In this document: one piece after another, positions 15,267 to 43,575 of the stretch
How the letters are laid out: the number at the start of each line of letters is the position of its first letter
Position numbering within the stretch: position 1 is the first letter of the stretch
DNA from: a virus
Lineage: Duplodnaviria; Caudoviricetes
Length of the DNA: 64,000 nucleotides
Reading direction: 5' to 3' (one strand)
IMG/VR virus record: IMGVR_UViG_3300025708_000007
Coordinates: 26,968-90,967 of that record
Translations under genes and position numbers: made by a program
The notes under the pieces: model-generated
The model's database searches: none
What the model saw: only the letters and a program-made list of their open reading frames with translations
What the model was told of the DNA's origin: nothing

Positions 15267-15274
15267 AAATTTAC

Positions 15275-15348: not shown

Positions 15349-15399
15349 CAAGCACGCACACAATGAATCGAAAATAAATTTTCGAAGTATTTATGATAT

Positions 15400-16130: not shown

Positions 16131-16136
16131 CTAAAT

Positions 16137-16211
16137 GTGTCTGTCGTCTAATGGCTAAGATATTGGCTTCCAAACCCAAGGATGAAGGTTCGAGTCCTTC
16201 CAGACATGCCA
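16137..16211 (+). tRNA. tRNA-Trp(CCA), CCA end encoded
   Basis: TTGGC TT CCA AA CCCAA; G73. Confidence 0.8.
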
Positions 16212-18527: not shown

Positions 18528-18552
18528 CTAAAACATTTAAAACATTGAAATT

Positions 18553-28146: not shown

Positions 28147-28228
28147 CGGCAGAATGGTAAGTGGGTGAAATCACAGGTCTGTAAAACCTTCGCCATTGGC
28201 TATGGGGGTTCGAATCCCTCTCTGCCGA
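28147..28228 (+). tRNA. tRNA-Tyr(GTA) with apparent C1:G72
   Basis: AGGT CT GTA AA ACCT; long variable arm. Confidence 0.8.
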
Positions 28229-28277
28229 CTGAAAGAGTTTAGGCATTTTCTGTATCGCTGACTGAAATATCCAAATT

Positions 28278-28351
28278 GACTTCGTATCCGTAGTGGCTTT
28301 CGGACTTGACTCTTAATCAAGGATACGTGGGTTCGAATCCCACCGAGGTCA
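28278..28351 (+). tRNA. tRNA-Lys(CTT)
   Basis: CTTGA CT CTT AA TCAAG. Confidence 0.88.
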
Positions 28352-28356
28352 CAAAT

Positions 28357-28439
28357 GGGAGTGCGCTATCGTTGGAGAGATAGGCTTGTCTGTAAAACAA
28401 GTGCCATTGGCTGAGTTGGTTCGAATCCTATCGCTCCCA
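28357..28439 (+). tRNA. tRNA-Tyr(GTA)
   Basis: CTTGT CT GTA AA ACAAG. Confidence 0.85.
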
Positions 28440-28446
28440 CAAATTT

Positions 28447-28519
28447 GCGCTTGTAACTCAGTTGGTAGAGTAACGGACCTTTAATCCGTGAGTCGTGGGT
28501 TCGACCCCCACCGGGCGCA
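28447..28519 (+). tRNA. tRNA-Lys(TTT) with non-canonical C33
   Basis: ACGGA CC TTT AA TCCGT. Confidence 0.85.
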
Positions 28520-28526
28520 CAAATAT

Positions 28527-28600
28527 TCTCCTATAGCAAACAGGATGTATTGCCCCGCTCTTTTAAAGCGGTGGGTCTGGTTCGATTCCAGATAGGAGAA
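28527..28600 (+). tRNA. tRNA-Lys(TTT)
   Basis: CCGCT CT TTT AA AGCGG. Confidence 0.8.
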
Positions 28601-28688
28601 CAGACAAGCATTGTGTTCATACTAACATTTAATTAATGAATATAATGCTTTTTCGTTTTGCAATGTATTTATCATAAAAGTATTTTTT

Positions 28689-30479: not shown

Positions 30480-33047
30480 ATGACAGAAAAATCGCAAAAA
30501 ATTTATTCAAAACAGGAAATAGAAAAATCAACATTACAGTATTTTAAGGGTGACGAACTGGCAACAAAAGTCTGGCTTACAAAATACTGCTTAAAGGACG
30601 AAAAAAACTATTACGAATTAAACCCGGATGAGATGCACAGAAGACTTGCCAAAGAACTCGCAAGAATCGAAGCAAAATATCCAAACCCTCTCACAGAAGA
30701 ACAAATTTATGAAACATTAAAAAATTTCAATAGAATTGTACCACAAGGGTCTCCAATGTCAGGTATTGGCAATGATTTCCAAGTGGTATCTTTATCCAAT
30801 TGTTTCGTTATTGGTAATAAGGGTGAATCAGATTCCTATGGTGGAATATTAAAAATAGACCAAGAACAAATACAATTAATGAAACGCAGAGGCGGTGTCG
30901 GACACGATTTGTCCCACATTCGTCCAAAAGGAAGTCCGGTGAAAAATAGTGCAATTACCAGTACGGGTGTTGTACCTTTCATGGAAAGATATTCAAATAG
31001 CACAAGAGAAGTCGCACAAGACGGTAGACGTGGCGCACTTATGCTTAGTATTTCAATAAAACATCCAGATTCCGAAGCATTTATTGATGCAAAAATGACA
31101 CCGGGAAAAATAACTGGCGCAAACGTATCGGTAAAAATTGATAATGATTTCATGGAGTGTGCAATGCAAGGGACTACATACACTCAAATGTTTCCTACAA
31201 AGGGACATCCAAAAATGATTAAAGATATTGATGCGCAAAAACTTTGGAAAAAAATTATTCACAATGCTTGGAAATCTGCCGAACCGGGAATACTTTTCTG
31301 GGATAAGATTATGGAAGAAAGTGTTCCAGATTGTTATGCTGATGAAGGATTCACAACCGTAAGCACAAATCCTTGTGGCGAAATTCCACTATGTCCATAC
31401 GATAGTTGTCGATTGTTAGCAATTAATTTGTTTGGATATATTAAAAATCCTTTCACCAAGGAAGCAGAATTTGATTGGGATTTGTTTGAAAAAGATGTCA
31501 TTATTGCTATGAGATATATGGATGACATCATTGACTTGGAAGTTGAAAAAATTGATGCAATTCTTGAAAAAATCAAGTCTGACCCCGAAGATGAATTTCT
31601 TAAATTAACTGAAATCAACCTTTGGAATAATATCAAGGAAATGACGCTTAAAGGTAGAAGAACCGGACTTGGTGTAACTGCTGAAGGTGACATGCTTGCA
31701 GCTTTGAATTTACGTTATGGAACTGATGAAGCAACAGATTTTAGTGAAAAAGTACATAGAACATTAAAATTAAAAGCATATCGTTCAAGTGTTATTATGG
31801 CAGAAGAACGTGGCGCATTCTCCGTTTGGAATGGCGAACGTGAAACAAAAAATCCTTTCATTCTTAGAATAGCTGCTGAAGACCCAGAATTGTTTGAAGA
31901 TATGATGAAATATGGACGTAGAAATATTTCATTACTCACAATTGCACCAACTGGTACTGTTTCAATCATGACACAAACAACTTCGGGTATTGAACCAGCA
32001 TTTGAAGTGTTTTACAAACGTAGACGTAAAATTAATCCACAGGAAAAAGATGTTCGCATTGATTTTGTTGATGAAGAAGGAATTGCGTGGACTGAATATC
32101 CAGTCTTTCACCATAAATTCGAAACATGGCTTGAATTGAATGGATATGACGTTAATGTTGTAAGAACAATGGATAATGCGCAACTCGATGAAGTTGTGAA
32201 AAAATCGCCATATTATAAAGCAACGGCAAATGATGTCGATTGGTTAAAAAAGGTTGAAATGCAGGGTCGTTTACAAAGACACGTAGACCACTCAATTTCA
32301 GTGACAGTCAATCTCCCAAGTGACATTACTGAAGAAATGGTGGCAAAAGTTTATGAAACCGCATGGAAATCTGGCTGTAAGGGTTGTACTGTCTATCGTG
32401 ATGGTTCACGCAGTGGTGTGTTAATCACTGAAGAAAAGAAAACAAAAGAAAGTGAATTTCATGATACGCATGCGCCAAAACGTCCTAAGAGATTAAAAGG
32501 TGAAATTCATCGTTTTCAAAACAGTCTTGAAAAATGGATTGCAGTTGTTGGATTAAAAGACGGCAGACCATATGAAATTTTCACAGGTAAAAATGAAAAC
32601 GGCTTGAGTTATCTGCCAAACAATTTAAAAGAATGTGAAATTGTTAAGCAAATCTTTGAAGTTGAAGAACCAGATGAAAATGGTAAATTGGTTAAAGTCA
32701 GAAAAAAAAGATATGACATTGAATATATTGACGCTAATGGCGAAAGACAAGTACATACTGGCTTAAATCATGCATTCAATCCTGAATTCTGGAACTATGC
32801 AAAATTCATATCTGCAGTTCTCAGGCATGGAATGCCACTTCTTTATACGTGGGAATTAATTGATTCATTGAACTTTAAAGAAGACTATATCAACACTTGG
32901 AAAAATGGTGTTGCTCGTGTGATAAAGAAATACATTAAAGATGGTATTGAAGTAAATAAAAAATGCCCGAATTGTGGTAGTGACCATTTGGAATTTAAAG
33001 AAGGTTGCCTCACATGTATGGCATGTGGAAACAGTAAATGCGGTTAA
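30480..33047 (+). CDS. nrdJ: Class II (adenosylcobalamin-dependent) ribonucleotide reductase
   Basis: TNPCGE, RRGGVG, TIAPTG, GCKGCTVYRDGS and C-terminal CPNC...CMAC. Confidence 0.92.
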   Translation: MTEKSQKIYSKQEIEKSTLQYFKGDELATKVWLTKYCLKDEKNYYELNPDEMHRRLAKELARIEAKYPNPLTEEQIYETLKNFNRIVPQGSPMSGIGNDFQVVSLSNCFVIGNKGESDSYGGILKIDQEQIQLMKRRGGVGHDLSHIRPKGSPVKNSAITSTGVVPFMERYSNSTREVAQDGRRGALMLSISIKHPDSEAFIDAKMTPGKITGANVSVKIDNDFMECAMQGTTYTQMFPTKGHPKMIKDIDAQKLWKKIIHNAWKSAEPGILFWDKIMEESVPDCYADEGFTTVSTNPCGEIPLCPYDSCRLLAINLFGYIKNPFTKEAEFDWDLFEKDVIIAMRYMDDIIDLEVEKIDAILEKIKSDPEDEFLKLTEINLWNNIKEMTLKGRRTGLGVTAEGDMLAALNLRYGTDEATDFSEKVHRTLKLKAYRSSVIMAEERGAFSVWNGERETKNPFILRIAAEDPELFEDMMKYGRRNISLLTIAPTGTVSIMTQTTSGIEPAFEVFYKRRRKINPQEKDVRIDFVDEEGIAWTEYPVFHHKFETWLELNGYDVNVVRTMDNAQLDEVVKKSPYYKATANDVDWLKKVEMQGRLQRHVDHSISVTVNLPSDITEEMVAKVYETAWKSGCKGCTVYRDGSRSGVLITEEKKTKESEFHDTHAPKRPKRLKGEIHRFQNSLEKWIAVVGLKDGRPYEIFTGKNENGLSYLPNNLKECEIVKQIFEVEEPDENGKLVKVRKKRYDIEYIDANGERQVHTGLNHAFNPEFWNYAKFISAVLRHGMPLLYTWELIDSLNFKEDYINTWKNGVARVIKKYIKDGIEVNKKCPNCGSDHLEFKEGCLTCMACGNSKCG

Positions 33048-33579: not shown

Positions 33580-33610
33580 TTTGGTATTTATGAAACATTT
33601 TATACCTTTG
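33580..33610 (+). promoter_or_regulatory. Bacteroidota-type promoter of tRNA operon D
   Basis: TTTG, 19 nt, TACCTTTG. Confidence 0.8.
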
Positions 33611-33679
33611 CATCGTATTTAGGTAAAAATGAGTTTATGAAAAAACCTTTTTATTATTAAAAACAAAAAAAATAAAACA

Positions 33680-33814
33680 ATGAAACGAATAGCGTACATA
33701 TTAGTATCGAGTCTAACGACAACCAGTCGTATTGGAGAAGGTACATTTTGCTCAGATTTCGGCAGAAATAATATTGCGGATACGGGTTCAGGTTTTATTG
33801 ACTTAAAAAGATAA
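33680..33814 (+). CDS. Leader peptide D, MKRIAYILVSSLTTTSRIGEGTFCSDFGRNNIADTGSGFIDLKR (putative attenuator)
   Basis: 30 of 44 residues are S/T/G/I/R/F/N/C, matching the downstream tRNAs. Confidence 0.8.
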   Translation: MKRIAYILVSSLTTTSRIGEGTFCSDFGRNNIADTGSGFIDLKR

Positions 33815-33847
33815 GTAGGTAGTAAAATAAAACTGAAATAAAATCAG

Positions 33848-33879
33848 AACCCGGAATCCAAAAAAGTTCCGGGTTTTTT
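33848..33879 (+). terminator. Attenuator terminator D
   Basis: AACCCGGAAT / GTTCCGGGTT plus T run; alternative pairing with 33778-33799. Confidence 0.85.
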
Positions 33880-33904
33880 GTTTTTAATGCGTTCTTTACA
33901 TATT

Positions 33905-33976
33905 GCCAAGTTAGTTTAACGGATAGAATCTCTGTGTGGTATTCAGGGGATACAAGTTCGATTCTTGTACTTGGCT
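33905..33976 (+). tRNA. tRNA-Thr(GGT)
   Basis: GCCAAGT / ACTTGGC; loop GT GGT AT. Confidence 0.75.
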
Positions 33977-34044
33977 CAAAAATATAAGTCTTACAGCTTA
34001 TAAACACCGAATATAAGGTTTATGTCTTATATTTACCGTAAGAT

Positions 34045-34062
34045 GTTCTTTGACATGCTGGA
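34045..34062 (+). promoter_or_regulatory. boxA-like element
   Basis: GTTCTTTGACATGCTGGA, identical to 12409-26. Confidence 0.6.
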
Positions 34063-34068
34063 TTACCT

Positions 34069-34153
34069 GTCGGGTTGCCTGAGTGGTTGAAAGGGGCGGT
34101 CTGCAAAACCGTTTGCTTAATTGCACACGTGGGTTCGAATCCCACATCCGACT
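34069..34153 (+). tRNA. tRNA-Cys(GCA) with long variable arm
   Basis: GCGGT CT GCA AA ACCGT; U73; TGC TTAATT GCA arm. Confidence 0.85.
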
Positions 34154-34243
34154 CTACGGTTCAACAAACTAATGGCGTTGAATTTTATACGCATGCATGC
34201 CAATACGTATGAAAGGAAGGGTGAAACCCCCTTCACTGCACTT

Positions 34244-34329
34244 GTTCGGGTTGCTTTAGTTGGTCGAAAAGTCCTGCCTGTTAAGCAGACGGAGAAATCC
34301 CACCGCAGGTTCGAATCCTGCCCCGAACG
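34244..34329 (+). tRNA. tRNA-Asn(GTT) with long variable arm
   Basis: CTGC CT GTT AA GCAG; G73. Confidence 0.8.
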
Positions 34330-34392
34330 CAAATCTTTTTCATACTTTCGACTATTTATTATAAATAATGAGATAATTAATTAATCGAAAGT

Positions 34393-34986
34393 ATGAAAAC
34401 AAAAGATAGTGTAATTAAACTAAGACTTTCTGGAAAAAGTTATGGCGAAATAAGTAAAATGCTGAACATTTCTAAACCCACAGTATCCTACCATTGTATA
34501 AATGCCGGATTGAATGAACCAATTGATGGTCGTAAAATATTGAATGAGGCTGAGAAAATTGAACTTAATGAATATTATAAATCACATACTATTTTCGAAA
34601 CAGCAGAAAAATTTAAGATATCAAGAACAACTGTTCTTGCAAACACTGAAAATAAGAGACTGGTATTGTGTGAAATTGAAAAAAGAAAAAGAAATTATGA
34701 AAAGGTAAAAAATAGGCGACAACGGCTTAAAGAGATGGGTGTTGAATATTTAGGTGGAAAATGTATGAAATGTGGGTATGATAAATGTATTGCTGCGTTA
34801 GAATTTCACCATAGAAACCCAGAAGAAAAAGAATTTGGAATATCACGTTATCAAAATTTGAGTTGGTCAAGAATTATTGTTGAATTAGATAAATGTGATT
34901 TACTGTGTTCTAATTGTCATAAAGAATTACATTATGAGGAACATTGGGATGTATCACCTCTGCCTGATAAGCAGTCGAAAGTGTAG
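34393..34986 (+). CDS. HTH plus HNH endonuclease
   Basis: GGKCMKCGY...LEFHH...ELDKCDLLCSNCHKELH. Confidence 0.85.
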   Translation: MKTKDSVIKLRLSGKSYGEISKMLNISKPTVSYHCINAGLNEPIDGRKILNEAEKIELNEYYKSHTIFETAEKFKISRTTVLANTENKRLVLCEIEKRKRNYEKVKNRRQRLKEMGVEYLGGKCMKCGYDKCIAALEFHHRNPEEKEFGISRYQNLSWSRIIVELDKCDLLCSNCHKELHYEEHWDVSPLPDKQSKV

Positions 34987-35022
34987 TTTGGTTGCACGTG
35001 GGTTCAAATCCCACCTTCCCAA
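34945..35022 (+). tRNA. D-armless tRNA-Ile(GAT)-like RNA overlapping the HNH 3' end
   Basis: TGGGATG / CTTCCCA; CTGC CT GAT AA GCAG; 6-bp hairpin in the variable position. Confidence 0.5.
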
Positions 35023-35065
35023 CAAACCTTGACGAAGGTTTAACGTTGCAACGTTGAAATGGCTA

Positions 35066-35137
35066 CCTGTGGTTAGCATAGCTGGCAATGCTGCCCCCTG
35101 AAATGGGTGAAGGTGAGTTCAAGTCTCACACGCAGGA
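35066..35137 (+). tRNA. Atypical tRNA, probable Phe(GAA)
   Basis: GCAT/ATGC D stem; CCC CT GAA AT GGG; bulged acceptor stem. Confidence 0.5.
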
Positions 35138-35148
35138 GTCATTTATTT

Positions 35149-35233
35149 GGAGAAGTGTCCGAGTGGTTTATGGTGGCAGTCTTGAAAACTGCTGGATGTA
35201 ACAGTCCCGTGGGTTCGAATCCTACCTTCTCCG
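35149..35233 (+). tRNA. tRNA-Ser(TGA)
   Basis: GCAGT CT TGA AA ACTGC; long variable arm; G73. Confidence 0.92.
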
Positions 35234-35307
35234 CAAAGTCGTGTGCATTGGACTATCATCACACGATTTTCACATCAAAAAGGAGTCATGACCCGGTTTG
35301 ATGTCAG

Positions 35308-35462
35308 GGTTCTGGGTTGCATAAGAGGCTGCCCTGATGTTCAGTGGCGAAATCATGTACTCGCATTTGGCAGTGCGAATAGTACACGATAAGTAGTTGA
35401 GAGACATCCAAGTTAGTTGAAATACTTTCGGGGGACGTGAGTATGAGGCTCACACCAGAACC
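35308..35462 (+). ncRNA. Unassigned ~155-nt structured RNA
   Basis: GGTTCTGG / CCAGAACC closure; long internal hairpin TGTACT-TCGCA / TGCGA-AGTACA. Confidence 0.5.
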
Positions 35463-35467
35463 AAAAT

Positions 35468-35539
35468 GGAGCGGTAACTCAATGGTAGAGTGTCTGCCTG
35501 AAGAGCAGATGGTTGCAGGTTCAAGTCCTGCCCGTTCCA
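35468..35539 (+). tRNA. tRNA-Phe(GAA)
   Basis: TCTGC CT GAA GA GCAGA. Confidence 0.88.
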
Positions 35540-35545
35540 CCGAAA

Positions 35546-35585
35546 CGGTTCGCACTACACGATATGGAGAGTAGGAAGTGCAAAT
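35546..35585 (+). repeat. Inter-tRNA hairpin repeat, copy 1 of 3
   Basis: CGGTTCGCACTACACG-Nx-AGGAAGTGCAAA; also at 35754-35792 and 36119-36151. Confidence 0.8.
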
Positions 35586-35747
35586 GGGGAGATAGGGTTA
35601 TTTGGTAGACTCGTCAGTGTGAAAACTGAACTACGAAAGTAGGTAGTCCTCATGAGGGTTGTTGTTAACGTGCGCACAATTCTAACAACGCTTCCACTGA
35701 ATGTGAGTAATGACGAGAGGTTGGTGGTTCAAATCCATCTCTCCCCA
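35586..35747 (+). ncRNA. 162-nt tRNA-like RNA with a 94-nt insert at the anticodon
   Basis: GGGGAGA / TCTCCCC-A; D loop TGGTAG; CTCGTCA / TGACGAG; T arm. Confidence 0.65.
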
Positions 35748-35793
35748 CCGCAACGGTTCGCACTACACGGTGATTAACGAGGAAGTGCAAAAT

Positions 35794-35868
35794 TGTTGGG
35801 TAGTTTACAATGGGCAAAACGTCTGCCATGCGCAGGTGGACAAGAGGGTTCAAATCCTTCTCCAACAG
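35794..35868 (+). pseudogene. tRNA-like gene with a 5-nt anticodon loop (CATGC)
   Basis: Good acceptor, D and T arms; TCTGC CATGC GCAGG. Confidence 0.55.
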
Positions 35869-36033
35869 CAATTAAGAACTGGTCGCACGGGTGTTTGTCC
35901 TAACCAGAAAAACATTGTTCACCGAATAGGTGAGTATCCGAAAGTGGGCGATTCGGAGTGTGAAAATTTTTTATAGGTCGGGTCACAGAGGGCGTGGCTT
36001 GGGTAACTGTCTCACAAGGCATCCTGTAAATAC

Positions 36034-36106
36034 GGTGCGGTAGCTCAGTTGGTAGAGCAATGGACTGAAAATCCATGTGTCGGCAGTTCGATTCTGCCCC
36101 GTACCA
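36034..36106 (+). tRNA. tRNA-Phe(GAA)
   Basis: ATGGA CT GAA AA TCCAT. Confidence 0.92.
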
Positions 36107-36151
36107 CCCCCATCCATGCGGTTCGCACTACACGAAGTAGGAAGTGCAAAT

Positions 36152-36224
36152 GCAGGAATAACTCAATTGGCAGAGCGTCAGCCTTCCAAGCTGAAAGTTG
36201 CGGGTTCGAATCCCGCTTCCTGCT
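36152..36224 (+). tRNA. tRNA-Gly(TCC)
   Basis: TCAGC CT TCC AA GCTGA; U73. Confidence 0.92.
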
Positions 36225-36278
36225 CAAAATGGGTCTGAGGGAGTCCCTTAAAGGTATAAATAACCTGTCCCTCTCCAT

Positions 36279-36352
36279 AGTGGTGTAGCTCAATTGGTTA
36301 GAGCACTCGGCTTATACCCAAGAGGTTGGGGGTTCAAGTCCCTTCACCACTA
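36279..36352 (+). tRNA. tRNA-Ile(TAT), rare anticodon
   Basis: CTCGG CT TAT AC CCAAG; A73. Confidence 0.85.
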
Positions 36353-36471
36353 CAAACGCAGTGCTCACAGTCTCGCAAACTGTTATAAAGGAGTAGTTAA
36401 ACCCGAAATCGGTTCTCGAAATCGGCTGCGTTTTATTTTTTTGGTTAACAATTTGTGTTAACCACGTATTT

Positions 36472-36834
36472 ATGCATAAATTGTATTTTATGATTAAAGA
36501 ATGTAAAAAACATGGGTTAACTGAATTTAGTTGTGTTGGAAATGGTAATGGCACAAAAAGATGGCGATGCAAAAAATGTGTTGTTGATGCAGTAACCAAA
36601 AGACGAAGAGTTTTAAAAGAAAAAGCAGTTGCATATAAAGGTGGAAAATGTGAAAAGTGTGGATATGATAAATATATTGGAGCACTTGAATTTCATCATC
36701 CTGAAAATAATAAAGAATTTGGAATCGGTCAAAAAGGATATACAAAAAGTTGGGAAGCAATAAAAAAAGAATTGGATAAATGTATGCTTGTTTGTTCTAA
36801 TTGTCATAAAGAAATTGCTGCTGGTATAATATAA
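36472..36834 (+). CDS. HNH endonuclease (paralog of 34393-34986)
   Basis: GGKCEKCGYDKYIGALEFHH...CSNCHKEI. Confidence 0.85.
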   Translation: MHKLYFMIKECKKHGLTEFSCVGNGNGTKRWRCKKCVVDAVTKRRRVLKEKAVAYKGGKCEKCGYDKYIGALEFHHPENNKEFGIGQKGYTKSWEAIKKELDKCMLVCSNCHKEIAAGII

Positions 36835-36908
36835 GCTTCGGTAGCTCAGTTGGTAGTAGCATCTGACTGTTAATCAGAGGGTCGCAGGTTCAAGTCCTGC
36901 CCGGAGCG
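36835..36908 (+). tRNA. tRNA-Asn(GTT)
   Basis: TCTGA CT GTT AA TCAGA; G73. Confidence 0.92.
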
Positions 36909-37055
36909 CAAAAAAGATTTGGAATCATCATTTTAATTATTATCTTTGTTTTTTAATTTTTATAAAATGTACGAATATCCAAAGCTTAGTGAACGGTACT
37001 TTTTCTGGAAAAGATTGTATCAAAAATTGAAAAAGGGCAATAAATTCTATCACAC

Positions 37056-37547
37056 ATGATTATAACAGTAATATTATTATGCCTAATTGTTGTTTTTGTT
37101 GTTTTCGAAAAACTCAATTTCGATTTAAAAGACCCGTTTTATATTTTAAAACAAGCAAATATTTTTTTCAATGAATTGTGTCGTGACGATAATGTTTTCA
37201 TGGTCGAAAAACCACGTCCTGTTTTATATTCGTATTATCTAAACGATAAGGGTAAAATCAACAAAAATACAATTGCTTTCGGACAATATTTTCCATTTAA
37301 ATTCTTAAACCATGAAAATGATGAGAAAAAAAAGTATTTGACCTTAATTGCAATAAGATTATTAGAATGGCTTAAATTATATTATTCTGGAAGAATTTTA
37401 ATAGAAAATGGAAAACGAATTTCATCAAATAATATTGTCATCAAATTTAATGGTTTCACGTTATTTGGAAAATATGTGGTAAACAATGGTGGAATCTATA
37501 CGATATTTCTTTTGTTTTTATTTTTTTTATTAGATAAAATTATATGA
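37056..37547 (+). CDS. Hypothetical membrane protein
   Basis: Hydrophobic N and C termini. Confidence 0.55.
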   Translation: MIITVILLCLIVVFVVFEKLNFDLKDPFYILKQANIFFNELCRDDNVFMVEKPRPVLYSYYLNDKGKINKNTIAFGQYFPFKFLNHENDEKKKYLTLIAIRLLEWLKLYYSGRILIENGKRISSNNIVIKFNGFTLFGKYVVNNGGIYTIFLLFLFFLLDKII

Positions 37548-37888
37548 AAAAATACCTTTTTGTTGGTGAACGCAGAAGTCCAACTGCAATTCGAATGAAT
37601 GTTACATGGGTAGATAAACGCCTTGCTGCAGGACACCTTTATAAAGCATTAAAAAATCTTGATATTTGTTGGGATGAATGTGCATTCGCAAACGTCTTCG
37701 AAGACAAAATCGAGGACATTTTGTCCTTCAAAGGTGTGGTTATTGCAATGGGCAGAAAAGTTGAAAGAGAACTCAAAAAACACCAAATACAACACGAATT
37801 TATTTATCATCCCGCAACTCGTGGAGCGGTAAGAAACATTGAAAAATATAAAAATCACGTTAAAGAAAGAATCGGTCATATTGCTTGA
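37544..37888 (+). CDS. Hypothetical protein (uracil-DNA-glycosylase-like fold possible)
   Basis: FVGE, IAMG, IYHPA motifs. Confidence 0.45.
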   Translation: MKKYLFVGERRSPTAIRMNVTWVDKRLAAGHLYKALKNLDICWDECAFANVFEDKIEDILSFKGVVIAMGRKVERELKKHQIQHEFIYHPATRGAVRNIEKYKNHVKERIGHIA

Positions 37889-37910
37889 GTATTTATATTA
37901 AACTCGCAAC

Positions 37911-38180
37911 ATGAAAAAGATACTTAAAGCAATACAACGCTGGTTCGAACATTACGGATTGGTTAAAATCCTTGCTGCATTCATAATCTTGGCACTTGCT
38001 GTCGCAATTGGAAGAAGATTTCCTGAAACACAAACAGTTTGTGGATGGATTGGTGCAATTTCCGGTGGATATTTATTACTTACATTTGTTGTATTTTTTA
38101 TTGCAGGAATTGTTAATACAATAAAAGACATAATTGCAGTCAGAAAAGAAAAAAATGAAGAAAATAATACCGAAGAATAA
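37911..38180 (+). CDS. Small membrane protein
   Basis: Two TM segments. Confidence 0.6.
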   Translation: MKKILKAIQRWFEHYGLVKILAAFIILALAVAIGRRFPETQTVCGWIGAISGGYLLLTFVVFFIAGIVNTIKDIIAVRKEKNEENNTEE

Positions 38181-38679
38181 GAGAAGACCATTTCCGTACT
38201 TTGATTTCTTCATACCAGTATTAATCAACAGGAATAAAGATTATTCAATTATCAGATATTTTAAATTCACTGAAACTGCAATTTATTTGTTTAATGATGA
38301 AGACCAACACGATGTGAATAAATTATTTGGTTTCAGTTTTGGTTGGCATCACAAAAATTCAGTGAGGTTTGGTTGGAGACCCAACGAAACTCTGGATAAA
38401 ATTGAAATTGTTGGATATGAATATATTAATAAATTAAGAGTACCAACAATACCAATTTGTGATATTGAATTAAACAAATGGTATGGATTTGAATTGAAAT
38501 ATAAAAGTGGTGTTTTTGGACAAATTGAATATACCGTAACTGATGGTATTGAACATCATAGCACAGTTCATCCAATCACATTAAAAAATACTTGGAATTT
38601 AGGTTATAAACTTTTCCTCTATTTTGGTGGAAATAAAAAAGCACCACACGATATTTTAATATATCAAGCAAATAAATAA
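38155..38679 (+). CDS. Hypothetical protein
   Basis: NKLFGFS...NSVRFGWR...LYFGGNKKAPH. Confidence 0.65.
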   Translation: MKKIIPKNKRRPFPYFDFFIPVLINRNKDYSIIRYFKFTETAIYLFNDEDQHDVNKLFGFSFGWHHKNSVRFGWRPNETLDKIEIVGYEYINKLRVPTIPICDIELNKWYGFELKYKSGVFGQIEYTVTDGIEHHSTVHPITLKNTWNLGYKLFLYFGGNKKAPHDILIYQANK

Positions 38680-38681
38680 AT

Positions 38682-38765
38682 GCCGAAGTCGCTTAGTGGT
38701 CGATAGCACTGGTTTTGTAAACCAGAGGATAATATCCCACGTGGGTTCGAATCCCACCTTCGGCT
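38682..38765 (+). tRNA. tRNA-Thr(TGT) with long variable arm
   Basis: CTGGT TT TGT AA ACCAG; GGAT AAT ATCC arm. Confidence 0.85.
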
Positions 38766-38771
38766 CTCATT

Positions 38772-38845
38772 GCCGACATGGTTTCAGTGGCAACAACACC
38801 ACTTTCGTAAAGTGACAATCGTGAGTTCGAATCTCACTGTCGGCT
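38772..38845 (+). tRNA. tRNA-Thr(CGT)
   Basis: CACT TT CGT AA AGTG. Confidence 0.85.
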
Positions 38846-38914
38846 CAAAAAGGAGCAACTTTTCAAGATTTCTTCGTTTCATTCGTATTAGTATTTATAT
38901 GAAATACGATTGTA

Positions 38915-39646
38915 ATGAAGCCAGAGAATAAAGTATTATCCATCATCAATGAAGAAATTAATCTTTTTGAAACTGATATTAGCGGACACGCTTTTGACCA
39001 GATGAGAAAAAGATTGGATAGGATGAAATCTGGTGGTGACATTACACCGGAAGAAGATGCTGAAATAAGAAAAAATTTAAATAGCATTTTAACACACGAA
39101 TTTGATTCAAAAGATTATGGCATTTTTTTGGGTGCGTTTAAGCCAAATCCAAAATCACCACTTTATACCATAACAAATCCATATGACCCCGGAATACCAT
39201 TCTATCAAATATTTTCTGATGATGGTGTTTTCGCAAAAGATTCAACTGGCGATGAAATGTGGGCAATCATAAGAAACAATGTGTTAAAGACGGTGATGCT
39301 TAGAAAGAGTGTTCAACGCAGGTCAATGAATAAAGAAAGAAATGTTGACGGTGGATTGGGTGTTGATATAGCAATTCCAAATTTGGAAAAATTCTTAGCA
39401 AACGAAAAACAAAAAAAGGAATTGTTTCAACAAAAAATGTTGCAAAGGCAGCAAGAAGAAAAAAGCACAATCAATGTGGATGGTGTCATCTGGGCAATTG
39501 ATACAAAAAACCAAAAACTTTATAAGAAAAATAATCCAAATGTTTTTGTAACATTTGATAACATATTAAATCATCCTGCATGGAATGAAAATACGCAAGA
39601 GAAAGTATTTAATTATGTAACCGATTATCTCGATACTTTAAAGTAA
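38915..39646 (+). CDS. Hypothetical protein with IINEEI leader
   Basis: 243-aa ORF; SGHAFDQM. Confidence 0.7.
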   Translation: MKPENKVLSIINEEINLFETDISGHAFDQMRKRLDRMKSGGDITPEEDAEIRKNLNSILTHEFDSKDYGIFLGAFKPNPKSPLYTITNPYDPGIPFYQIFSDDGVFAKDSTGDEMWAIIRNNVLKTVMLRKSVQRRSMNKERNVDGGLGVDIAIPNLEKFLANEKQKKELFQQKMLQRQQEEKSTINVDGVIWAIDTKNQKLYKKNNPNVFVTFDNILNHPAWNENTQEKVFNYVTDYLDTLK

Positions 39647-39679
39647 AAATAATAATTATTAATCCTAAAACTATGGAAA

Positions 39680-39916
39680 GTGATGAAGGTGGTAAACAGG
39701 GAAAAAACAGCAACCTTATTTCTGTTCTTAGGGACTTTTTTCAATCCCTTGGGATACGATGCTTTACTCAAATGGCTAATGGATACAACAGGCAGTTATT
39801 GGTTTTCAATTTCTATTTTTTACCTTGTTTCAGCCTCATGCTTTATTTCATACTTCTTGTTGGCTAAAGTAAATCCATTTGCTTGGTTGAAAAATAAAAG
39901 GAAAAAGAGTGAATAA
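39680..39916 (+). CDS. Small membrane protein
   Basis: GTFFNPLGYD plus hydrophobic segments. Confidence 0.6.
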   Translation: MMKVVNREKTATLFLFLGTFFNPLGYDALLKWLMDTTGSYWFSISIFYLVSASCFISYFLLAKVNPFAWLKNKRKKSE

Positions 39917-39948
39917 TTTCACTCTTTTTTCATATCTTTGTAATCTAT

Positions 39949-40022
39949 GCACCCGTAGCTCATTTGGATAGAGCATCGGTCTTCTAAACCGAGGGTGGTG
40001 AGTTCGAATCTCACCGGGTGTA
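39949..40022 (+). tRNA. tRNA-Arg(TCT)
   Basis: TCGGT CT TCT AA ACCGA. Confidence 0.92.
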
Positions 40023-40133
40023 CAAAAACACACAAAATGAAAACAGTTATTTGTCCAAAATGTGGAAAAGTAATTGCAGTGCCGGAAGGAAAAGATTTTG
40101 TAATTTGCTGCGATGAAGTAATTTATGTGATTA

Positions 40134-40358
40134 ATGAAGTTCACGATTGAAAACATGCCACCACTTATAGTGCTGGATGAAAAAGGTAAAGAAGTAAAAT
40201 TAAATGGTTATGCTTTTATGGATGAATATAAGCATTGCATTATAATCCGATATGGAGAGGGAAGTAGAGATGCAATGGCAAAGTATTTAACTGAAGAAGG
40301 CGACCCATTAGGAATTAAATACCACTATGTTAATATGCTCCCATCGTCCAACGGATAG
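40134..40358 (+). CDS. Hypothetical protein
   Basis: 74-aa ORF ending inside the next tRNA. Confidence 0.45.
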   Translation: MKFTIENMPPLIVLDEKGKEVKLNGYAFMDEYKHCIIIRYGEGSRDAMAKYLTEEGDPLGIKYHYVNMLPSSNG

Positions 40359-40408
40359 GGTGAAGGTTTCCTAAACCTTAGATGCAGGTTCGATTCCTGC
40401 TGGGAGTA
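40337..40408 (+). tRNA. tRNA-Arg(CCT)
   Basis: AAGGT TT CCT AA ACCTT. Confidence 0.88.
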
Positions 40409-40420
40409 CAAAAAATAAAT

Positions 40421-40494
40421 GCCCTTGTAGTTCAATGGATAGAATGCTTGGTTTCGACCCAAGAGGTTTGCGGGTTCGAGTCCTGCCAAGGGTA
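40421..40494 (+). tRNA. tRNA-Arg(TCG)
   Basis: CTTGG TT TCG AC CCAAG. Confidence 0.88.
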
Positions 40495-40499
40495 CAAAT

Positions 40500-40577
40500 G
40501 CATCTGTGGCGCAATTGGATTAGCGCATTGGTCTACGAAACCAAAGGTTGTGAGTTCGAATCTCACCAGATGTACCA
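40500..40577 (+). tRNA. tRNA-Arg(ACG), CCA encoded
   Basis: TTGGT CT ACG AA ACCAA. Confidence 0.92.
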
Positions 40578-40601
40578 AAGTATTTATGGTAAAAGATTAA
40601 T

Positions 40602-40952
40602 ATGTGTCTAAAACCAAAAGTAAAAAAAATGAACGGCTTCGTGAGTTTTATCACGTTTGGCTTTGCAGCAGGAATTACATTAGCACCATTCGGTATTTAC
40701 ATCAAAGAAAAATATTTGACGTTAAAACGAATGGTAAACCACGAAAAAATTCATTGGCAACAGCAATTAGAAATGCTGATAATCTTTTTCTACATTTGGT
40801 ATTTTGTTGAATGGTTGATTAAATTATTTTTTTATGGAAGTAAAGCATATTATAATCTTTCATTTGAACGTGAAGCCAATGAATATGAAAATGATTTCGA
40901 GTATTTGAAAAAAAGAAAACATTTTGCTTGGATTAAAAGAATTTTTAAGTAA
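40602..40952 (+). CDS. HExxH zincin-like membrane protein
   Basis: NHEKIHWQQQLE; SFEREA. Confidence 0.7.
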   Translation: MCLKPKVKKMNGFVSFITFGFAAGITLAPFGIYIKEKYLTLKRMVNHEKIHWQQQLEMLIIFFYIWYFVEWLIKLFFYGSKAYYNLSFEREANEYENDFEYLKKRKHFAWIKRIFK

Positions 40953-41015
40953 TTTTGCATACATGAAGAAAACAAACACATCGTAAATCAGTCCTGCTAC
41001 TGATTAATTACGATT

Positions 41016-41267
41016 ATGTTGTTCAGAGAAACAAAGAAGCAGGAACAACCAGAAGAAGTAATCAAGGATGATGCCTATTATAGAAAGCATCCGAAAATTG
41101 CAAGACTCTGGCTCGTGGAAATTACCTCTACGGATGGTGAAATCTACAAATTTTACGTTAATGCCTTAACACAATTTGATGCTTATGAAAAAGCAGATGG
41201 TTATGTTTACTGGCTTGAAAACGAAAAACTAAGGAATATACTGAAAACTTTTCGGTTGATGCCTTAA
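41016..41267 (+). CDS. Hypothetical protein
   Basis: 83-aa ORF. Confidence 0.55.
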   Translation: MLFRETKKQEQPEEVIKDDAYYRKHPKIARLWLVEITSTDGEIYKFYVNALTQFDAYEKADGYVYWLENEKLRNILKTFRLMP

Positions 41268-41276
41268 CAAAAAAAG

Positions 41277-41364
41277 TGAGTTGTATGCATGGAGTGTGAA
41301 GTCTGCTCCGGTAACTTAAAACTGCGGTAACGTGCAGAGACCGATGGTGCTCCACACAACTTAT
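41277..41364 (+). ncRNA. Candidate ~88-nt structured RNA upstream of tRNA-Gly
   Basis: GAGTTGT/ACAACTT, TGGAGT/GCTCCA and TCTGC/GCAGA nested stems. Confidence 0.4.
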
Positions 41365-41372
41365 TTTAAAAT

Positions 41373-41444
41373 GCGAGATTAGCTCAGTGGTAGAGCACGA
41401 CTTTGCCAAAGTCGGGGTCGTGGGTTCAAATCCCATATCTCGCT
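41373..41444 (+). tRNA. tRNA-Gly(GCC)
   Basis: CGACT TT GCC AA AGTCG. Confidence 0.92.
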
Positions 41445-41495
41445 CAATTTTGTAACATTTTTAAATTTTTATTCGTATAATGAGAAAAACTTAAT

Positions 41496-41801
41496 ATGAA
41501 TTACAAGGGTAAGAAATATAAAAAGGTGAATTTGTTCTGGAAACAACATCTAAACCCAATTAAAAAAGGTGATTTAGTTGTTGTACATTGCAAACCCAGC
41601 AGTGATTATTTCAAATATAATGGAATATATACTATTGTAGATGATTGGAGAGGTATTGATATTGAAAATTATGATGGCGAAGGTCATACGCTCTGTTTGA
41701 AACTTGGATATAATATCAGTTACAGAGATTTTTCTAAATTGGTTGAAGTCGAAAGAAAGAAAAATCTTCCAATGCCACTAAAAGAAAAACAAGAATATTA
41801 G
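41496..41801 (+). CDS. Hypothetical protein
   Basis: 101-aa ORF. Confidence 0.55.
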   Translation: MNYKGKKYKKVNLFWKQHLNPIKKGDLVVVHCKPSSDYFKYNGIYTIVDDWRGIDIENYDGEGHTLCLKLGYNISYRDFSKLVEVERKKNLPMPLKEKQEY

Positions 41802-41953
41802 TGTGGTTATACAAAAATCGACTACCCCGCCACACAAAAAAATAACACAGAGGATTCATCGCTTATAGGACATTTTATAGGACAAAGTGTCTCATAAGAG
41901 GAACTTCAGAACATCGCTTTTATTAAAAATCATTGTATTTATAATAAAAAACT

Positions 41954-42577
41954 ATGGCAAAATATTATCATAAGTGTTCAATATGCAATAAAAGAGTAAA
42001 AAGAAAAAAACCAAATTTTAATGGTAAAATAATTTGTAATCCTTGTAAGAAAAATGAAAATACTGTAAAATGTTTATGTTGTGGAAAATATTTTAAAAAA
42101 AGAGTTTCTAAACGTAAATTTTGTTCACGAGCATGTTCTGGAAAATATCTTGGTGAGCATACATTAAAAGGTAGAAAACTTTCAACAATTACAAAAGAAA
42201 AACTTTCAAAAATTGCATCTGGAAATAACAACGGAATCATAAAAACCAAATATTATAAAATATTTTCACCACATATGAATAAATTTGTTGCCGTTCAGGG
42301 AACATATGAATTGAAATATGCTAAATATCTTAATGAAAATAATGTTGATTGGATAAGGTCAAAAGAAATTTCAATGCAATATAAAAAAGCCGATAATGTG
42401 ACAAGAAATTATTTTCCAGATTTTTATCTTCCAAATACAGATGAGTATATTGAAATTAAAGGATATTTTTTTCCTAAAGATAAAGAAAAAATGAAATTGG
42501 TTCAAAAACAAAATAACAATAAAAACATTCGGATTTTATTTAAAGAAGACTTGGAAAAACTAAACATTATTTTATAG
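41954..42577 (+). CDS. NUMOD3 plus TnsA-like PD-(D/E)XK endonuclease
   Basis: GRKLSTITKEKLS; YFPDFYL...YIEIKG. Confidence 0.8.
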   Translation: MAKYYHKCSICNKRVKRKKPNFNGKIICNPCKKNENTVKCLCCGKYFKKRVSKRKFCSRACSGKYLGEHTLKGRKLSTITKEKLSKIASGNNNGIIKTKYYKIFSPHMNKFVAVQGTYELKYAKYLNENNVDWIRSKEISMQYKKADNVTRNYFPDFYLPNTDEYIEIKGYFFPKDKEKMKLVQKQNNNKNIRILFKEDLEKLNIIL

Positions 42578-42787
42578 ATATTCATTATAAGTGAGTAGTA
42601 GCGTGTATTTTACATGAGAAAACTCCGAACACCGTTGCTGGACGCAGGAGACCTAAACAGTCGTTAATACTGCGGAGTGGTGCAAGCCAAATAGACTTAG
42701 AGGGAAAGCAACTCAGTGATAGTCGGGTTGGTGCATTAGATAAATTACTACATAAAGCAGAATTCGGGTTACGGCTGTAATGAATAT
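42578..42787 (+). ncRNA. rnpB: Minimal RNase P RNA candidate
   Basis: P1, P2, P3, P4 with bulged U (AAC-U-CCGAA / TTCGGGTT), GCAAGCCAAATAG, TAGATAAAT and GCAGAATTCGGGTTAC conserved-region motifs in the correct order. Confidence 0.75.
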
Positions 42788-42864
42788 TTATAAAATTCTG
42801 GGTACGCTCACGTTATTTTTATTTTTTTTGTAACATATTCAAATTTATTTCGTATATTTGCCGA

Positions 42865-43182
42865 ATGGAAAATGAATTATGGGAAATATTAGTCCCTGCG
42901 TCAAACAATAAAGACCAGAAATTCAGCTTTGAACACCACAAAGCATGGGATGCTTTTGTAAAAAAGACAACTGGTGGTGTTACAATAATGAAAACAGCCA
43001 AAGGTCAGTGGGTTAGTCCTACTGGAAAACTTTATATTGACAGAATGATACCCTGCAGAATTGTTTGTACTGAAGAACAGATGTCAGAGATTATTGACTT
43101 TACACTGGAACACTATAATCAGGAAGCAGTTCTGGCTTACAGGATTTCAACGAATGTAATTTTACGTTATAAAAATAAATAA
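42865..43182 (+). CDS. Hypothetical protein
   Basis: 105-aa ORF. Confidence 0.65.
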   Translation: MENELWEILVPASNNKDQKFSFEHHKAWDAFVKKTTGGVTIMKTAKGQWVSPTGKLYIDRMIPCRIVCTEEQMSEIIDFTLEHYNQEAVLAYRISTNVILRYKNK

Positions 43183-43184
43183 TC

Positions 43185-43448
43185 ATGAAACTTTATCATT
43201 TTAATCACAATGGCTATGGTGAAGAATTTTATGTAATGGCAGAAAATAAAATTGATGCACATAAATATCTTCTTAAATATCTACAAGAAAAAATTGATGA
43301 CCCAAGAAATCATGTCTATAAAAGCATGTATAAACAAGACCTAAATGATTGGATAAATGTGAATCCAGAAGACCCAGATACTTTTCCAAGTTCGTTTACT
43401 TTAGACGAATATGAGGAAGGTTTTGTTATTCAATCAGAAGTGGCTTGA
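43185..43448 (+). CDS. Hypothetical protein
   Basis: 87-aa ORF. Confidence 0.6.
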   Translation: MKLYHFNHNGYGEEFYVMAENKIDAHKYLLKYLQEKIDDPRNHVYKSMYKQDLNDWINVNPEDPDTFPSSFTLDEYEEGFVIQSEVA

Positions 43449-43453
43449 TTATT

Positions 43454-43538
43454 GGAGAGATGGGTGAGTGGCTTAAACCACCAGTTTGCTAAACTGACGT
43501 ATGTAACAGTACCGAGGGTTCGAATCCCTCTCTCTCCG
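43454..43538 (+). tRNA. tRNA-Ser(GCT)
   Basis: CAGT TT GCT AA ACTG; long variable arm. Confidence 0.92.
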
Positions 43539-43575
43539 CAAACATAATTTTTCGTATTTATATTAAACGAATGTT

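What the first reader, a model, noticed from the sequence alone, without database searches (positions are those of the whole stretch)
33680..33905. Attenuator D: 44-codon leader listing the anticodons of the largest cluster
The leader has consecutive ACG ACA ACC codons, matching the Thr anticodons CGT, TGT and GGT downstream. It also has CGA/CGT/AGA (Arg TCG, ACG, TCT), ATA (Ile TAT), TCA/AGT (Ser TGA, GCT), GGA/GGC/GGT (Gly TCC, GCC), TGC, AAT and TTT/TTC. An extended antiterminator can form: GGAT-AC-GGGTTC-A-GGTTTTATT (33778-99) with AATAAAATC-A-GAACCC-GGA-ATCC (33837-59). The match to Thr, Arg, Gly and Ser tRNAs at 38.7-43.5 kb suggests a transcript of up to ~10 kb, or that genes were inserted later.
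Basis: partly seen in the sequence, partly recalled or inferred. Interest (0 to 1): 0.86.

Follow-up and report, generated by a model that had tools for sequence, protein, structure and literature searches.

The report
Leader-peptide attenuator gating phage tRNA genes
A giant uncultured phage puts a 44-codon test gene, written mostly in the amino acids whose tRNA genes follow, and a switchable transcription stop in front of its largest tRNA block, so it probably makes these tRNAs when ribosomes read those codons slowly; I found no paper describing such control of tRNA genes.

Summary
The sequence facts hold: a Bacteroidota-type promoter motif (33580-33610), a 44-codon ORF (33680-33814), an intrinsic terminator (33847-33876 plus T-run) and tRNA-Thr 29 nt later. 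The proposed antiterminator (33778-99 with 33837-59) is real and far stronger than in shuffles.

The amino-acid match is real but modest for D alone: 30 of 43 residues are cognate, and 4% of random short ORFs reach that. Comparison makes it convincing:
- 17 homologous leaders in related ~330-kb phages keep the frame open (0 stops, against 49 and 52 in the other frames).
- All 17 are enriched in cognate residues.
- 16 of 17 keep the region 2/3/4 three-way complementarity.
- Where the cluster is split (L071, L040), two leaders divide the amino acids accordingly.
- A public 635-kb phage (LR745206.1) groups its tRNAs differently, and its leaders follow that grouping.

Two claims fail. The codon-by-codon "anticodon list" is not beyond chance (P=0.21). 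A single 10-kb transcript is unsupported, because promoter-like motifs and a terminator lie inside the cluster.

Best reading: a trp-like, multivalent, ribosome-mediated attenuator. No RNA data were available. This scan has reported the same design before, for attenuators A and C of this genome and on other phage DNA. No publication was found.

The parts
33580..33610 (+). Promoter-like motif TTTG-N19-TAnnTTTG (-33 box 33580-33583, -7 box 33603-33610), of the Bacteroidota sigma-A type. The transcription start about 7-12 nt downstream is inferred.
   Evidence: 6 exact matches in the window against 1.16 expected; four of them lie before the four leader ORFs; the motif is present 38-70 nt before the ATG in 11 of the 17 D-type leaders (19 nt in a twelfth, L040b).
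33611..33679 (+). A-rich 5' untranslated region with no Shine-Dalgarno sequence. It holds two mini-ORFs (33629-33640 and 33637-33660) of unknown relevance.
   Evidence: sequence. Bacteroidota commonly initiate translation on A-rich, unstructured leaders (my own knowledge, not tested here).
33680..33814 (+). Leader ORF D, 44 codons plus TAA. 30 of the 43 residues after Met are T,C,N,F,S,R,G or I, the amino acids of the downstream tRNAs.
   Evidence: The frame is conserved in 17 homologs: 0 stops against 49 and 52 in the other two frames. All homologs rank in the top 0-4.5% of short ORFs of their own locus for cognate content.
33693..33778 (+). Structured domain inside the ORF: outer helix 33693-33703 with 33769-33778, hairpin 33712-33736 over the Thr-Thr-Thr-Ser-Arg codons, and hairpin 33746-33767. 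Possibly an RNA polymerase pause or synchronising element (inferred).
   Evidence: centroid structure; whole leader z -4.8. Equivalent hairpins appear in the homologs.
33778..33799 (+). Region 2, the 5' strand of the antiterminator. It lies in codons 33-40 of the leader ORF and ends 13-15 nt before the stop codon.
   Evidence: Region 2 ends between 4 nt past and 21 nt before the first base of the stop codon in all 16 homologs measured.
33837..33859 (+). Region 3, the 3' strand of the antiterminator. It overlaps the 5' arm of the terminator (33847-33857).
33847..33886 (+). Intrinsic terminator: 11-bp stem 33847-33857 with 33866-33876, 8-nt loop, T-run reaching 33886.
   Evidence: A terminator of the form AAACCCG...CGGGTTT plus T-run precedes the first tRNA of the clusters throughout the phage family.
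33905..36909 (+). Proximal part of cluster D: tRNAs Thr(ggt), Cys, Asn, Phe, Ser(tga), Phe, Arg(gcg), Phe, Gly(tcc), Ile(tat), Asn. It is interrupted by HNH-type ORFs at 34393-34986 and 36472-36834. No promoter motif lies between the terminator and this stretch.
   Evidence: Only 29 nt separate the terminator stem from tRNA-Thr.
36918..43539 (+). Distal part of cluster D: Thr(tgt), Thr(cgt), Arg(tct, cct, tcg, acg), Gly(gcc), Ser(gct), among about a dozen ORFs. It contains a promoter-like motif (36918-36948), GTATTTAT motifs and a terminator (39904-39927), so how far it depends on leader D is open.
   Evidence: The tRNA order is collinear with the compact clusters of L053 and L067.

Best explanation
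Element D is a multivalent, ribosome-mediated (leader-peptide) transcription attenuator that gates a phage tRNA operon.

Proposed sequence of events:
1. Transcription starts at the promoter at 33580-33610 and runs through the 44-codon leader.
2. If ribosomes translate the leader quickly, they occupy or unwind region 2 (codons 33-40) while RNA polymerase makes regions 3 and 4. The terminator 33847-33876 then forms and transcription stops 20-30 nt before tRNA-Thr.
3. If the ribosome lags at any of the many Thr, Ser, Arg, Ile, Gly, Phe, Cys or Asn codons in codons 2-28, region 2 stays free. It pairs with region 3 as soon as that emerges, the terminator cannot form, and polymerase reads into the tRNA genes.
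4. The new tRNAs speed up decoding of the leader and shut the unit down again. This gives negative feedback on tRNA supply.

Shown here: the parts, their conservation, the mutually exclusive pairings, and the covariation of leader composition with cluster content. Inferred: translation of the ORF, the kinetic coupling, the direction of the response and the feedback.

The unit surely covers the proximal 3 kb (11 tRNAs). The distal tRNAs were probably once in the same compact operon and may now also be fed by internal promoters.
For: Layout:
- The order is promoter motif, short ORF, terminator, first tRNA.
- Only 29 nt separate the terminator stem from the tRNA, and 10-47 nt in 15 of 17 homologs. 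There is no room for a separate promoter, so the first tRNAs can only be made by reading through the terminator.

Composition:
- 30 of 43 residues are cognate (p 1.6e-4 against long ORFs).
- The four leader-by-cluster counts of the window give chi-square p 1.7e-14, and 0 of 200000 shuffles reach the observed diagonal.
- In relatives, the leader's own cluster scores best in 24 of 27 modules, against 10 expected.
- All 17 D-type leaders are in the top 0-4.5% of short ORFs of their own locus.

Covariation:
- In L071 and L040 the cluster is split. A Thr/Arg/Ile-rich leader precedes Thr, Arg and Ile tRNAs. A leader rich in Asn/Leu/Ser/Phe/Gly/Cys and poor in Thr/Arg precedes those tRNAs (Fisher p 3e-4 and 7e-4).
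- In the public record LR745206.1 the amino acids are grouped differently (Pro/Asp/Gln; His/Phe/Trp/Lys/Arg/Ser; Asn/Arg/Leu/Val/Ile/Thr/Met). Its three leaders follow that grouping: 54 of 97 residues on the diagonal, reached by 0 of 200000 shuffles.

Reading frame:
- 0 stops against 49 and 52 in the other frames over 17 leaders, while DNA identity to the window falls to 44-85%.

RNA structure:
- Before region 4 exists, the terminator's 5' arm pairs with the last codons of the ORF in 16 of 17 homologs.
- A phage's own region 2:3 duplex averages -17.8 kcal/mol, against -12.9 for pairs taken from different phages; 0 of 100000 permutations reach the observed sum.
- The terminated and antiterminated states of the window's leader differ by only 3.5 kcal/mol.
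- With a ribosome placed on the stop codon, the terminator forms in 16 of 17.
- Modelling ribosome position gives the expected switch in L019, L005, L014 and L049.
Against:
- On composition alone, D is the weakest of the four leaders. Its cognate set of eight amino acids is 41-47% of the background, and 4% of random short ORFs match it.
- Conserved hairpins inside the ORF constrain some codons, for example ACG ACA and AGT CGT, and could inflate the apparent match.
- Cognate codons also lie inside region 2 (codons 35-40). A stall there would favour termination, not read-through.
- In equilibrium folding of the window's own leader, the terminator stays favoured (P >= 0.6) wherever the ribosome is placed, so the switch must be kinetic.
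- No clear, conserved anti-antiterminator (region 1:2) was found, so without any translation the element may default to read-through.
- The sensor cannot tell scarce tRNA from uncharged tRNA.
- The homologs share ancestry, so the counts over them are not independent events.
Confidence: 0.7

Rival explanations
1. The terminator is constitutive and leaky. It simply sets a low, fixed level of tRNA transcription or insulates the cluster. The short ORF is untranslated or irrelevant, and its composition comes from AT-rich sequence and conserved RNA hairpins.
For: - D alone is only marginally enriched: 4% of random short ORFs reach its cognate fraction.
- The codon-level match is at chance.
- Conserved hairpins constrain codons.
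- The terminator is favoured at equilibrium for every ribosome position in the window's leader.
Against: - The frame is open in all 17 homologs, with about 50 stops in each other frame.
- Leader composition follows cluster content when clusters are split or regrouped.
- Region 2 covaries with region 3 and always sits in the last codons of the ORF.
- None of these is expected for a plain terminator.
Confidence: 0.1
2. The leader is a structured, non-translated RNA switch that senses something else: a protein, a small molecule, or a tRNA bound directly as in T-box leaders.
For: - The leader is strongly structured (z -4.8).
- It has conserved internal hairpins.
- It has a clear terminator/antiterminator alternative.
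Against: - No Rfam family, T-box included, matches the leader at E <= 1.
- Frame conservation and the conserved ATG-AAA start are unexplained by a pure RNA sensor.
- So is leader composition tracking tRNA identity across differently grouped clusters.
Confidence: 0.07
3. The leader is translated but works as a general translation-stress sensor. Any global slowing of ribosomes de-represses all tRNA blocks, without specificity for the eight cognate amino acids.
For: - With eight amino acids making up 70% of the codons, almost any slowing of elongation would delay the ribosome.
- No region 1:2 pairing enforces termination in the absence of translation.
Against: - The four leaders of the window divide the amino acids almost without overlap and match their own clusters.
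- The split and regrouped leaders do the same.
- That partition would be pointless for a purely global sensor.
Confidence: 0.1

Closest known systems
Multivalent leader-peptide attenuators of enterobacterial amino-acid operons (thr leader with Thr and Ile codons, ilvGMEDA leader with Ile, Leu and Val codons; also trpL, hisL, pheL). The general mechanism is analysed in PMC1183508.
   Same: A short translated leader rich in cognate codons, an intrinsic terminator, and an antiterminator that shares a strand with the terminator. The ribosome's position decides which structure forms. Several amino acids are sensed by one leader.
   Different: - The regulated genes are tRNA genes, not biosynthetic enzymes, so the product feeds back directly on the decoding step being sensed.
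- Eight amino acids are sensed by scattered codons, not by a tight run.
- Region 2 lies inside the ORF.
- No clear 1:2 anti-antiterminator was found.
- The element is in a phage and uses a Bacteroidota-type promoter.
Leader-peptide attenuation of the E. coli pheST (phenylalanyl-tRNA synthetase) operon (recalled from memory, not checked here)
   Same: A gene of the translation apparatus, not of biosynthesis, is gated by a leader rich in the cognate codon.
   Different: That target is a synthetase protein and the leader senses one amino acid. Here the targets are the tRNAs themselves and the leader is multivalent.
T-box riboswitches
   Same: Both sense the state of a specific tRNA and switch between a terminator and an antiterminator ahead of translation-related genes.
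   Different: T-boxes bind uncharged tRNA directly and need no ribosome. No T-box or other Rfam family matches here, and a conserved translated frame is present instead.
The same design reported earlier in this scan: attenuators A and C of this genome, and leader-gated tRNA blocks in other giant phages
   Same: Promoter, cognate-rich short ORF, terminator and tRNA block, with the amino acids partitioned among blocks.
   Different: D is the largest and most multivalent unit. It is the weakest on composition alone, and its tRNA block has been stretched to 9.6 kb by inserted genes.

Membership tests
Ribosome-mediated (leader-peptide) transcription attenuator | A short ORF lies between a promoter and the regulated genes | tested here: met
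   The promoter motif is at 33580-33610 and the ORF at 33680-33814. The same layout occurs in the homologs.
Ribosome-mediated (leader-peptide) transcription attenuator | The leader ORF is translated | tested here: inconclusive
   The frame is conserved (0 stops against 49 and 52 in the other frames over 17 homologs) and the ATG-AAA start and A-rich upstream region are conserved. Translation itself is not shown; no RNA or ribosome data were available.
Ribosome-mediated (leader-peptide) transcription attenuator | The leader is enriched in codons cognate to the regulated product | tested here: met
   Met at the amino-acid level. Not met at the level of individual codons and anticodons.
Ribosome-mediated (leader-peptide) transcription attenuator | An intrinsic terminator lies between the leader ORF and the first regulated gene | tested here: met
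   An 11-bp GC-rich stem plus T-run at 33847-33886, 29 nt before tRNA-Thr. It is conserved across the family.
Ribosome-mediated (leader-peptide) transcription attenuator | An antiterminator is mutually exclusive with the terminator, and its upstream strand is within reach of the translating ribosome | tested here: met
   The pairing 33778-99 with 33837-59 has a duplex energy of -20.5 kcal/mol and z -5.6 for the segment fold. It is present in 16 of 17 homologs and covaries.
Ribosome-mediated (leader-peptide) transcription attenuator | An anti-antiterminator (region 1:2) makes termination the default when the leader is not translated | tested here: inconclusive
   In the minimum-energy fold, region 2 pairs with the start-codon region, but this is absent from the centroid structure and I did not find it conserved.
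Ribosome-mediated (leader-peptide) transcription attenuator | Read-through rises when the cognate charged tRNA is scarce | not testable with these tools
   This needs reporter assays or RNA 3'-end mapping.
Ribosome-mediated (leader-peptide) transcription attenuator | The regulated genes encode amino-acid biosynthesis enzymes or synthetases, as in all described members I know of | tested here: not met
   The regulated genes are tRNA genes. This is the point of novelty, not a failure of the mechanism.
T-box riboswitch | A specifier loop and the conserved T-box sequence, detectable with the Rfam model | tested here: not met
   No Rfam match on 33580-33904 at E <= 1.
Bacteroidota sigma-A promoter (-33 TTTG, -7 TAnnTTTG) | Both boxes are present with about 19 nt between them | tested here: met
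   6 exact matches against 1.16 expected, four of them before the four leaders. The consensus is from my own knowledge, and the start site is not mapped.

The most novel reading that the evidence does not exclude
Leader D is one of four sensors by which this phage measures the decoding speed of its ribosomes, amino-acid group by amino-acid group. Each sensor switches on exactly the matching block of its own tRNA genes. Together they would form a self-contained tRNA homeostat covering all 20 amino acids. Such a system could keep phage translation going when host tRNAs decay or are cut by anticodon nucleases (context: PMC10264068).
Probability: 0.55. Interest if true: 0.9.

Novelty: new variant of a known kind. 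Interest (0 to 1): 0.8.

Why it matters
Leader-peptide attenuation is textbook for amino-acid operons, but I found no description of it controlling tRNA genes in seven full-text searches.

If it works as read, it would show three things:
- Giant phages regulate their tRNA genes on demand, not constitutively.
- The sorting of phage tRNA genes into amino-acid groups has a regulatory reason.
- tRNA supply can be controlled by a direct feedback loop, in which the sensed quantity is the speed of decoding by the product itself.

It also bears on why phages carry tRNAs at all: codon compensation or escape from tRNA-targeting defences. It offers compact natural sensors of the supply of specific tRNAs, and the idea is directly testable with reporters.

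Tried and rejected
- **Codon-level anticodon listing:** tested and not beyond chance.
- **Equilibrium model:** a model with a 30-nt ribosome mask gave no switch for the window's own leader, though it did for four relatives. I therefore treat the switch as kinetic.
- **Formal pair counting:** the MAFFT alignment of regions 2-4 put the CCCG cores of several sequences out of register. I did not run pair counts on it, and used own-versus-cross duplex energies instead. An ungapped register table was uninformative outside the invariant core.
- **Rfam:** no family matches the leader.
- **LR756500.1:** no tRNAs near its ribonucleotide reductase gene.
- **LR745206.1:** one cluster (L083 23371-25075, Met/Glu/Tyr/Ile/Gly) shows no leader in the 330 nt upstream.
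- **Other candidate leaders in the window:** the terminator-preceded tRNAs at 39949 and 43454 are not leader modules. The ORF before 39949 is a conserved 77-residue hydrophobic protein, and the ORF before 43454 is not enriched in Ser.

Full report
**Context.** The window is the 3' 64 kb of a 90,967-base IMG/VR virus contig judged about 28% complete, with 33% G+C. It carries 50 tRNA genes, one of them an amber-suppressor type, plus a tmRNA, all on the + strand. The tRNAs are sorted by amino acid into four blocks:
- A: Pro/His/Gln, at 6830-8276.
- B: Asp/Glu/Val/Leu/Ala/Trp, at 12432-16211.
- C: Tyr/Lys, at 28147-28601.
- D: Thr/Cys/Asn/Phe/Ser/Arg/Gly/Ile, at 33905-43539.

The ribonucleotide reductase gene next to the finding (30480-33047) has relatives on 78 viral contigs, several from genomes of 320-360 kb. 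Distant DNA matches go to uncultured huge phages LR745206.1 and LR756500.1.

**Check of the observation.**
- The antiterminator duplex (33777-97 with the region before and in the terminator's 5' arm) has -20.5 kcal/mol, against -6.6 +/- 2.4 for shuffles.
- The segment 33770-33865 adopts it as its minimum-energy and centroid fold: -25.5 kcal/mol, z -5.6.
- The whole leader is unusually structured (z -4.8).

**Is the codon match more than chance?**
- *Amino-acid level.* 30 of 43 residues belong to the eight amino acids of block D. That set is 41% of residues in the contig's long ORFs (p 1.6e-4), but 4% of its 569 random short ORFs do as well. D alone is therefore only suggestive.
- *Codon level.* The claim fails: 26 codons have an exact phage anticodon against 23.2 expected from synonymous usage (P=0.21). 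The rare ACG codon lies in the stem of a conserved hairpin.
- *All four leaders together.* I found the same module in front of blocks A, B and C. The leader-by-cluster table gives chi-square p 1.7e-14, and no shuffle of 200000 reaches the observed diagonal of 69 of 124.

**Comparative evidence.** In the related contigs the layout Lys/Tyr block, reductase gene, Thr/Cys/... block is conserved. The first tRNA of a block is preceded by a terminator of the form AAACCCG...CGGGTTT plus T-run and by a short ORF that ends 13-43 nt before it. For D I collected 17 leaders, with 44-85% DNA identity to the window's.
- All 17 start with a conserved ATG-AAA in an A-rich context.
- All keep the frame open: 0 stops in frame against 49 and 52 in the other two frames, over 656 codons.
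- All are among the top 0-4.5% of short ORFs of their own locus for cognate residues, at 70-88%.
- Across all module types, the leader's own cluster scores best in 24 of 27 cases, against 10 expected.

These sequences share ancestry, so the strongest evidence comes from rearrangements.
- *Split clusters.* In L071 and L040, block D is split in two. A short leader with a core such as ITRITRKRR precedes Thr, Arg and Ile tRNAs. A second leader, rich in Asn, Leu, Ser, Phe, Gly and Cys but with one Thr and no Arg, precedes exactly those tRNAs, including two Leu tRNAs that have moved there (Fisher p 3e-4 and 7e-4).
- *A differently grouped phage.* In the public 635-kb record LR745206.1 the amino acids are grouped quite differently. 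Its three leaders follow that grouping, for example a PQPQDQDP core before Pro, Asp and Gln tRNAs. The diagonal is 54 of 97, reached by 0 of 200000 shuffles.

**RNA switch.**
- In all 16 D-type leaders folded without region 4, the terminator's 5' arm pairs with an xCGGGTTx segment in the last codons of the ORF.
- With the 3' arm made unavailable, the same holds in 16 of 17. With a ribosome placed on the stop codon, the terminator forms in 16 of 17.
- Region 2 ends between 4 nt past and 21 nt before the stop codon in every case measured.
- Regions 2 and 3 covary: a phage's own pair averages -17.8 kcal/mol, pairs taken across phages -12.9, and no permutation of 100000 does as well.
- The two states of the window's leader differ by only 3.5 kcal/mol.
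- An equilibrium model with a moving ribosome mask gives the expected switch in L019, L005, L014 and L049, but not in the window's own leader, where the terminator stays favoured. As in the trp operon, the decision would have to be kinetic: whichever partner of region 3 is available first wins.

**Mechanism proposed.** The promoter motif TTTG-N19-TAnnTTTG occurs six times in the window against 1.16 expected, and four of the six lie in front of the four leaders. Eleven of the 17 D-type leaders have it 38-70 nt before the ATG, and a twelfth (L040b) has it 19 nt before. Only 29 nt separate the terminator stem from tRNA-Thr (10-47 nt in 15 of 17 homologs), so the first tRNAs can be made only by read-through.
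- Fast translation carries the ribosome onto region 2 while polymerase makes regions 3 and 4. The result is termination.
- A ribosome delayed at cognate codons 2-28 leaves region 2 free to capture region 3. The result is read-through, more tRNA, faster translation, and shut-off.
- The parts and their conservation are shown. Translation, kinetic coupling, the direction of the response and the feedback are inferred.

**Extent of the unit.** A single 10-kb transcript is not supported.
- A fifth exact promoter motif lies at 36918-36948, right after the eleventh tRNA.
- The motif GTATTTAT (32 on the + strand, 10 on the - strand) sits about 15-40 nt before most of the inserted ORFs.
- A terminator at 39904-39927 precedes tRNA-Arg(tct), as it also does in L019.

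The same tRNA order is packed into 1.3 kb in L067 and 2.6 kb in L053 behind one leader. In the window, the ORFs at 34393-34986, 36472-36834 and 41954-42577 are HNH or other homing-type endonucleases, and most of the others match no family. The leader's Thr and Arg codons are already served by the proximal Thr(ggt) and Arg(gcg) genes.

**Comparison with what is known.** The element works like the multivalent leader-peptide attenuators of amino-acid operons (mechanism: PMC1183508). It differs in its target, which is tRNA genes, in sensing eight amino acids through scattered codons, in having region 2 inside the ORF, and in lacking a clear 1:2 pairing. No Rfam family, T-box included, matches it. 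Seven full-text searches found no paper on leader-peptide control of tRNA genes, and a large attenuator survey does not mention tRNA genes. Earlier notes of this scan describe the same design for attenuators A and C of this genome and in other giant phages. I tested A-C only in part and the other genomes not at all.

**Caveats.**
- There are no expression data.
- D is compositionally the weakest leader.
- Conserved hairpins inside the ORF constrain some codons.
- Cognate codons also lie within region 2.
- The sensor cannot separate tRNA scarcity from amino-acid starvation.
- The homologs are not independent samples.

**Verdict.** The attenuator reading is well supported. The anticodon-list claim and the 10-kb-transcript claim are not. 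It is a new variant of a known mechanism, of high interest.

Noticed in passing
window 33283, 33584, 36466, 37889, 38891, 40580, 41935, 43554 (and 24 more on the + strand): The motif GTATTTAT occurs 32 times on the + strand and 10 times on the - strand. It usually sits about 15-40 nt before an ORF start, which looks like a phage-specific promoter element. It also overlaps the -33 region of the promoters of leaders A and D.
   Followed up: partly
window 34393-34986, 36472-36834, 41954-42577: HNH or other homing-type endonuclease ORFs lie between the tRNA genes. The first sits where relatives (L019, L005, L020, L049, L058) carry one or two tRNA-Ile(gat) genes. The window has no tRNA-Ile(gat), although leader D has three ATT codons.
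   Followed up: partly
window 39683-39927: A conserved 77-residue hydrophobic ORF ends inside a terminator-like hairpin (39904-39927), 22 nt before tRNA-Arg(tct). The same arrangement occurs in L019 (16840-17082). Its function is unknown, and it is not a cognate-rich leader.
   Followed up: partly
window 36918-36948: A fifth exact TTTG-N19-TAnnTTTG motif lies directly after tRNA-Asn and before a run of unknown ORFs leading to tRNA-Thr(tgt) and tRNA-Thr(cgt). It is a possible internal promoter of block D.
   Followed up: no
window 33629-33660: Two mini-ORFs of 3 and 7 codons lie in the predicted 5' untranslated region of leader D. They may be chance in AT-rich sequence.
   Followed up: no
window 34069-34154 and 34244-34330: tRNA-Cys (86 nt) and tRNA-Asn (87 nt) are unusually long for these identities. 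The Rfam tRNA scores are 55.8 and 39.1 bits.
   Followed up: no
L081 8280-8540; L083 780-1055 and 46100-46399 (LR745206.1): A published but unannotated 635-kb phage genome carries the same promoter, leader, terminator and tRNA modules, with a different grouping of amino acids. One further cluster there (L083 23371-25075) shows no leader within the 330 nt upstream.
   Followed up: partly
window 18155-18528 and 46324-46399: A phage-encoded tmRNA and a tRNA with anticodon CTA (amber-suppressor type). All four leader ORFs end in TAA.
   Followed up: no
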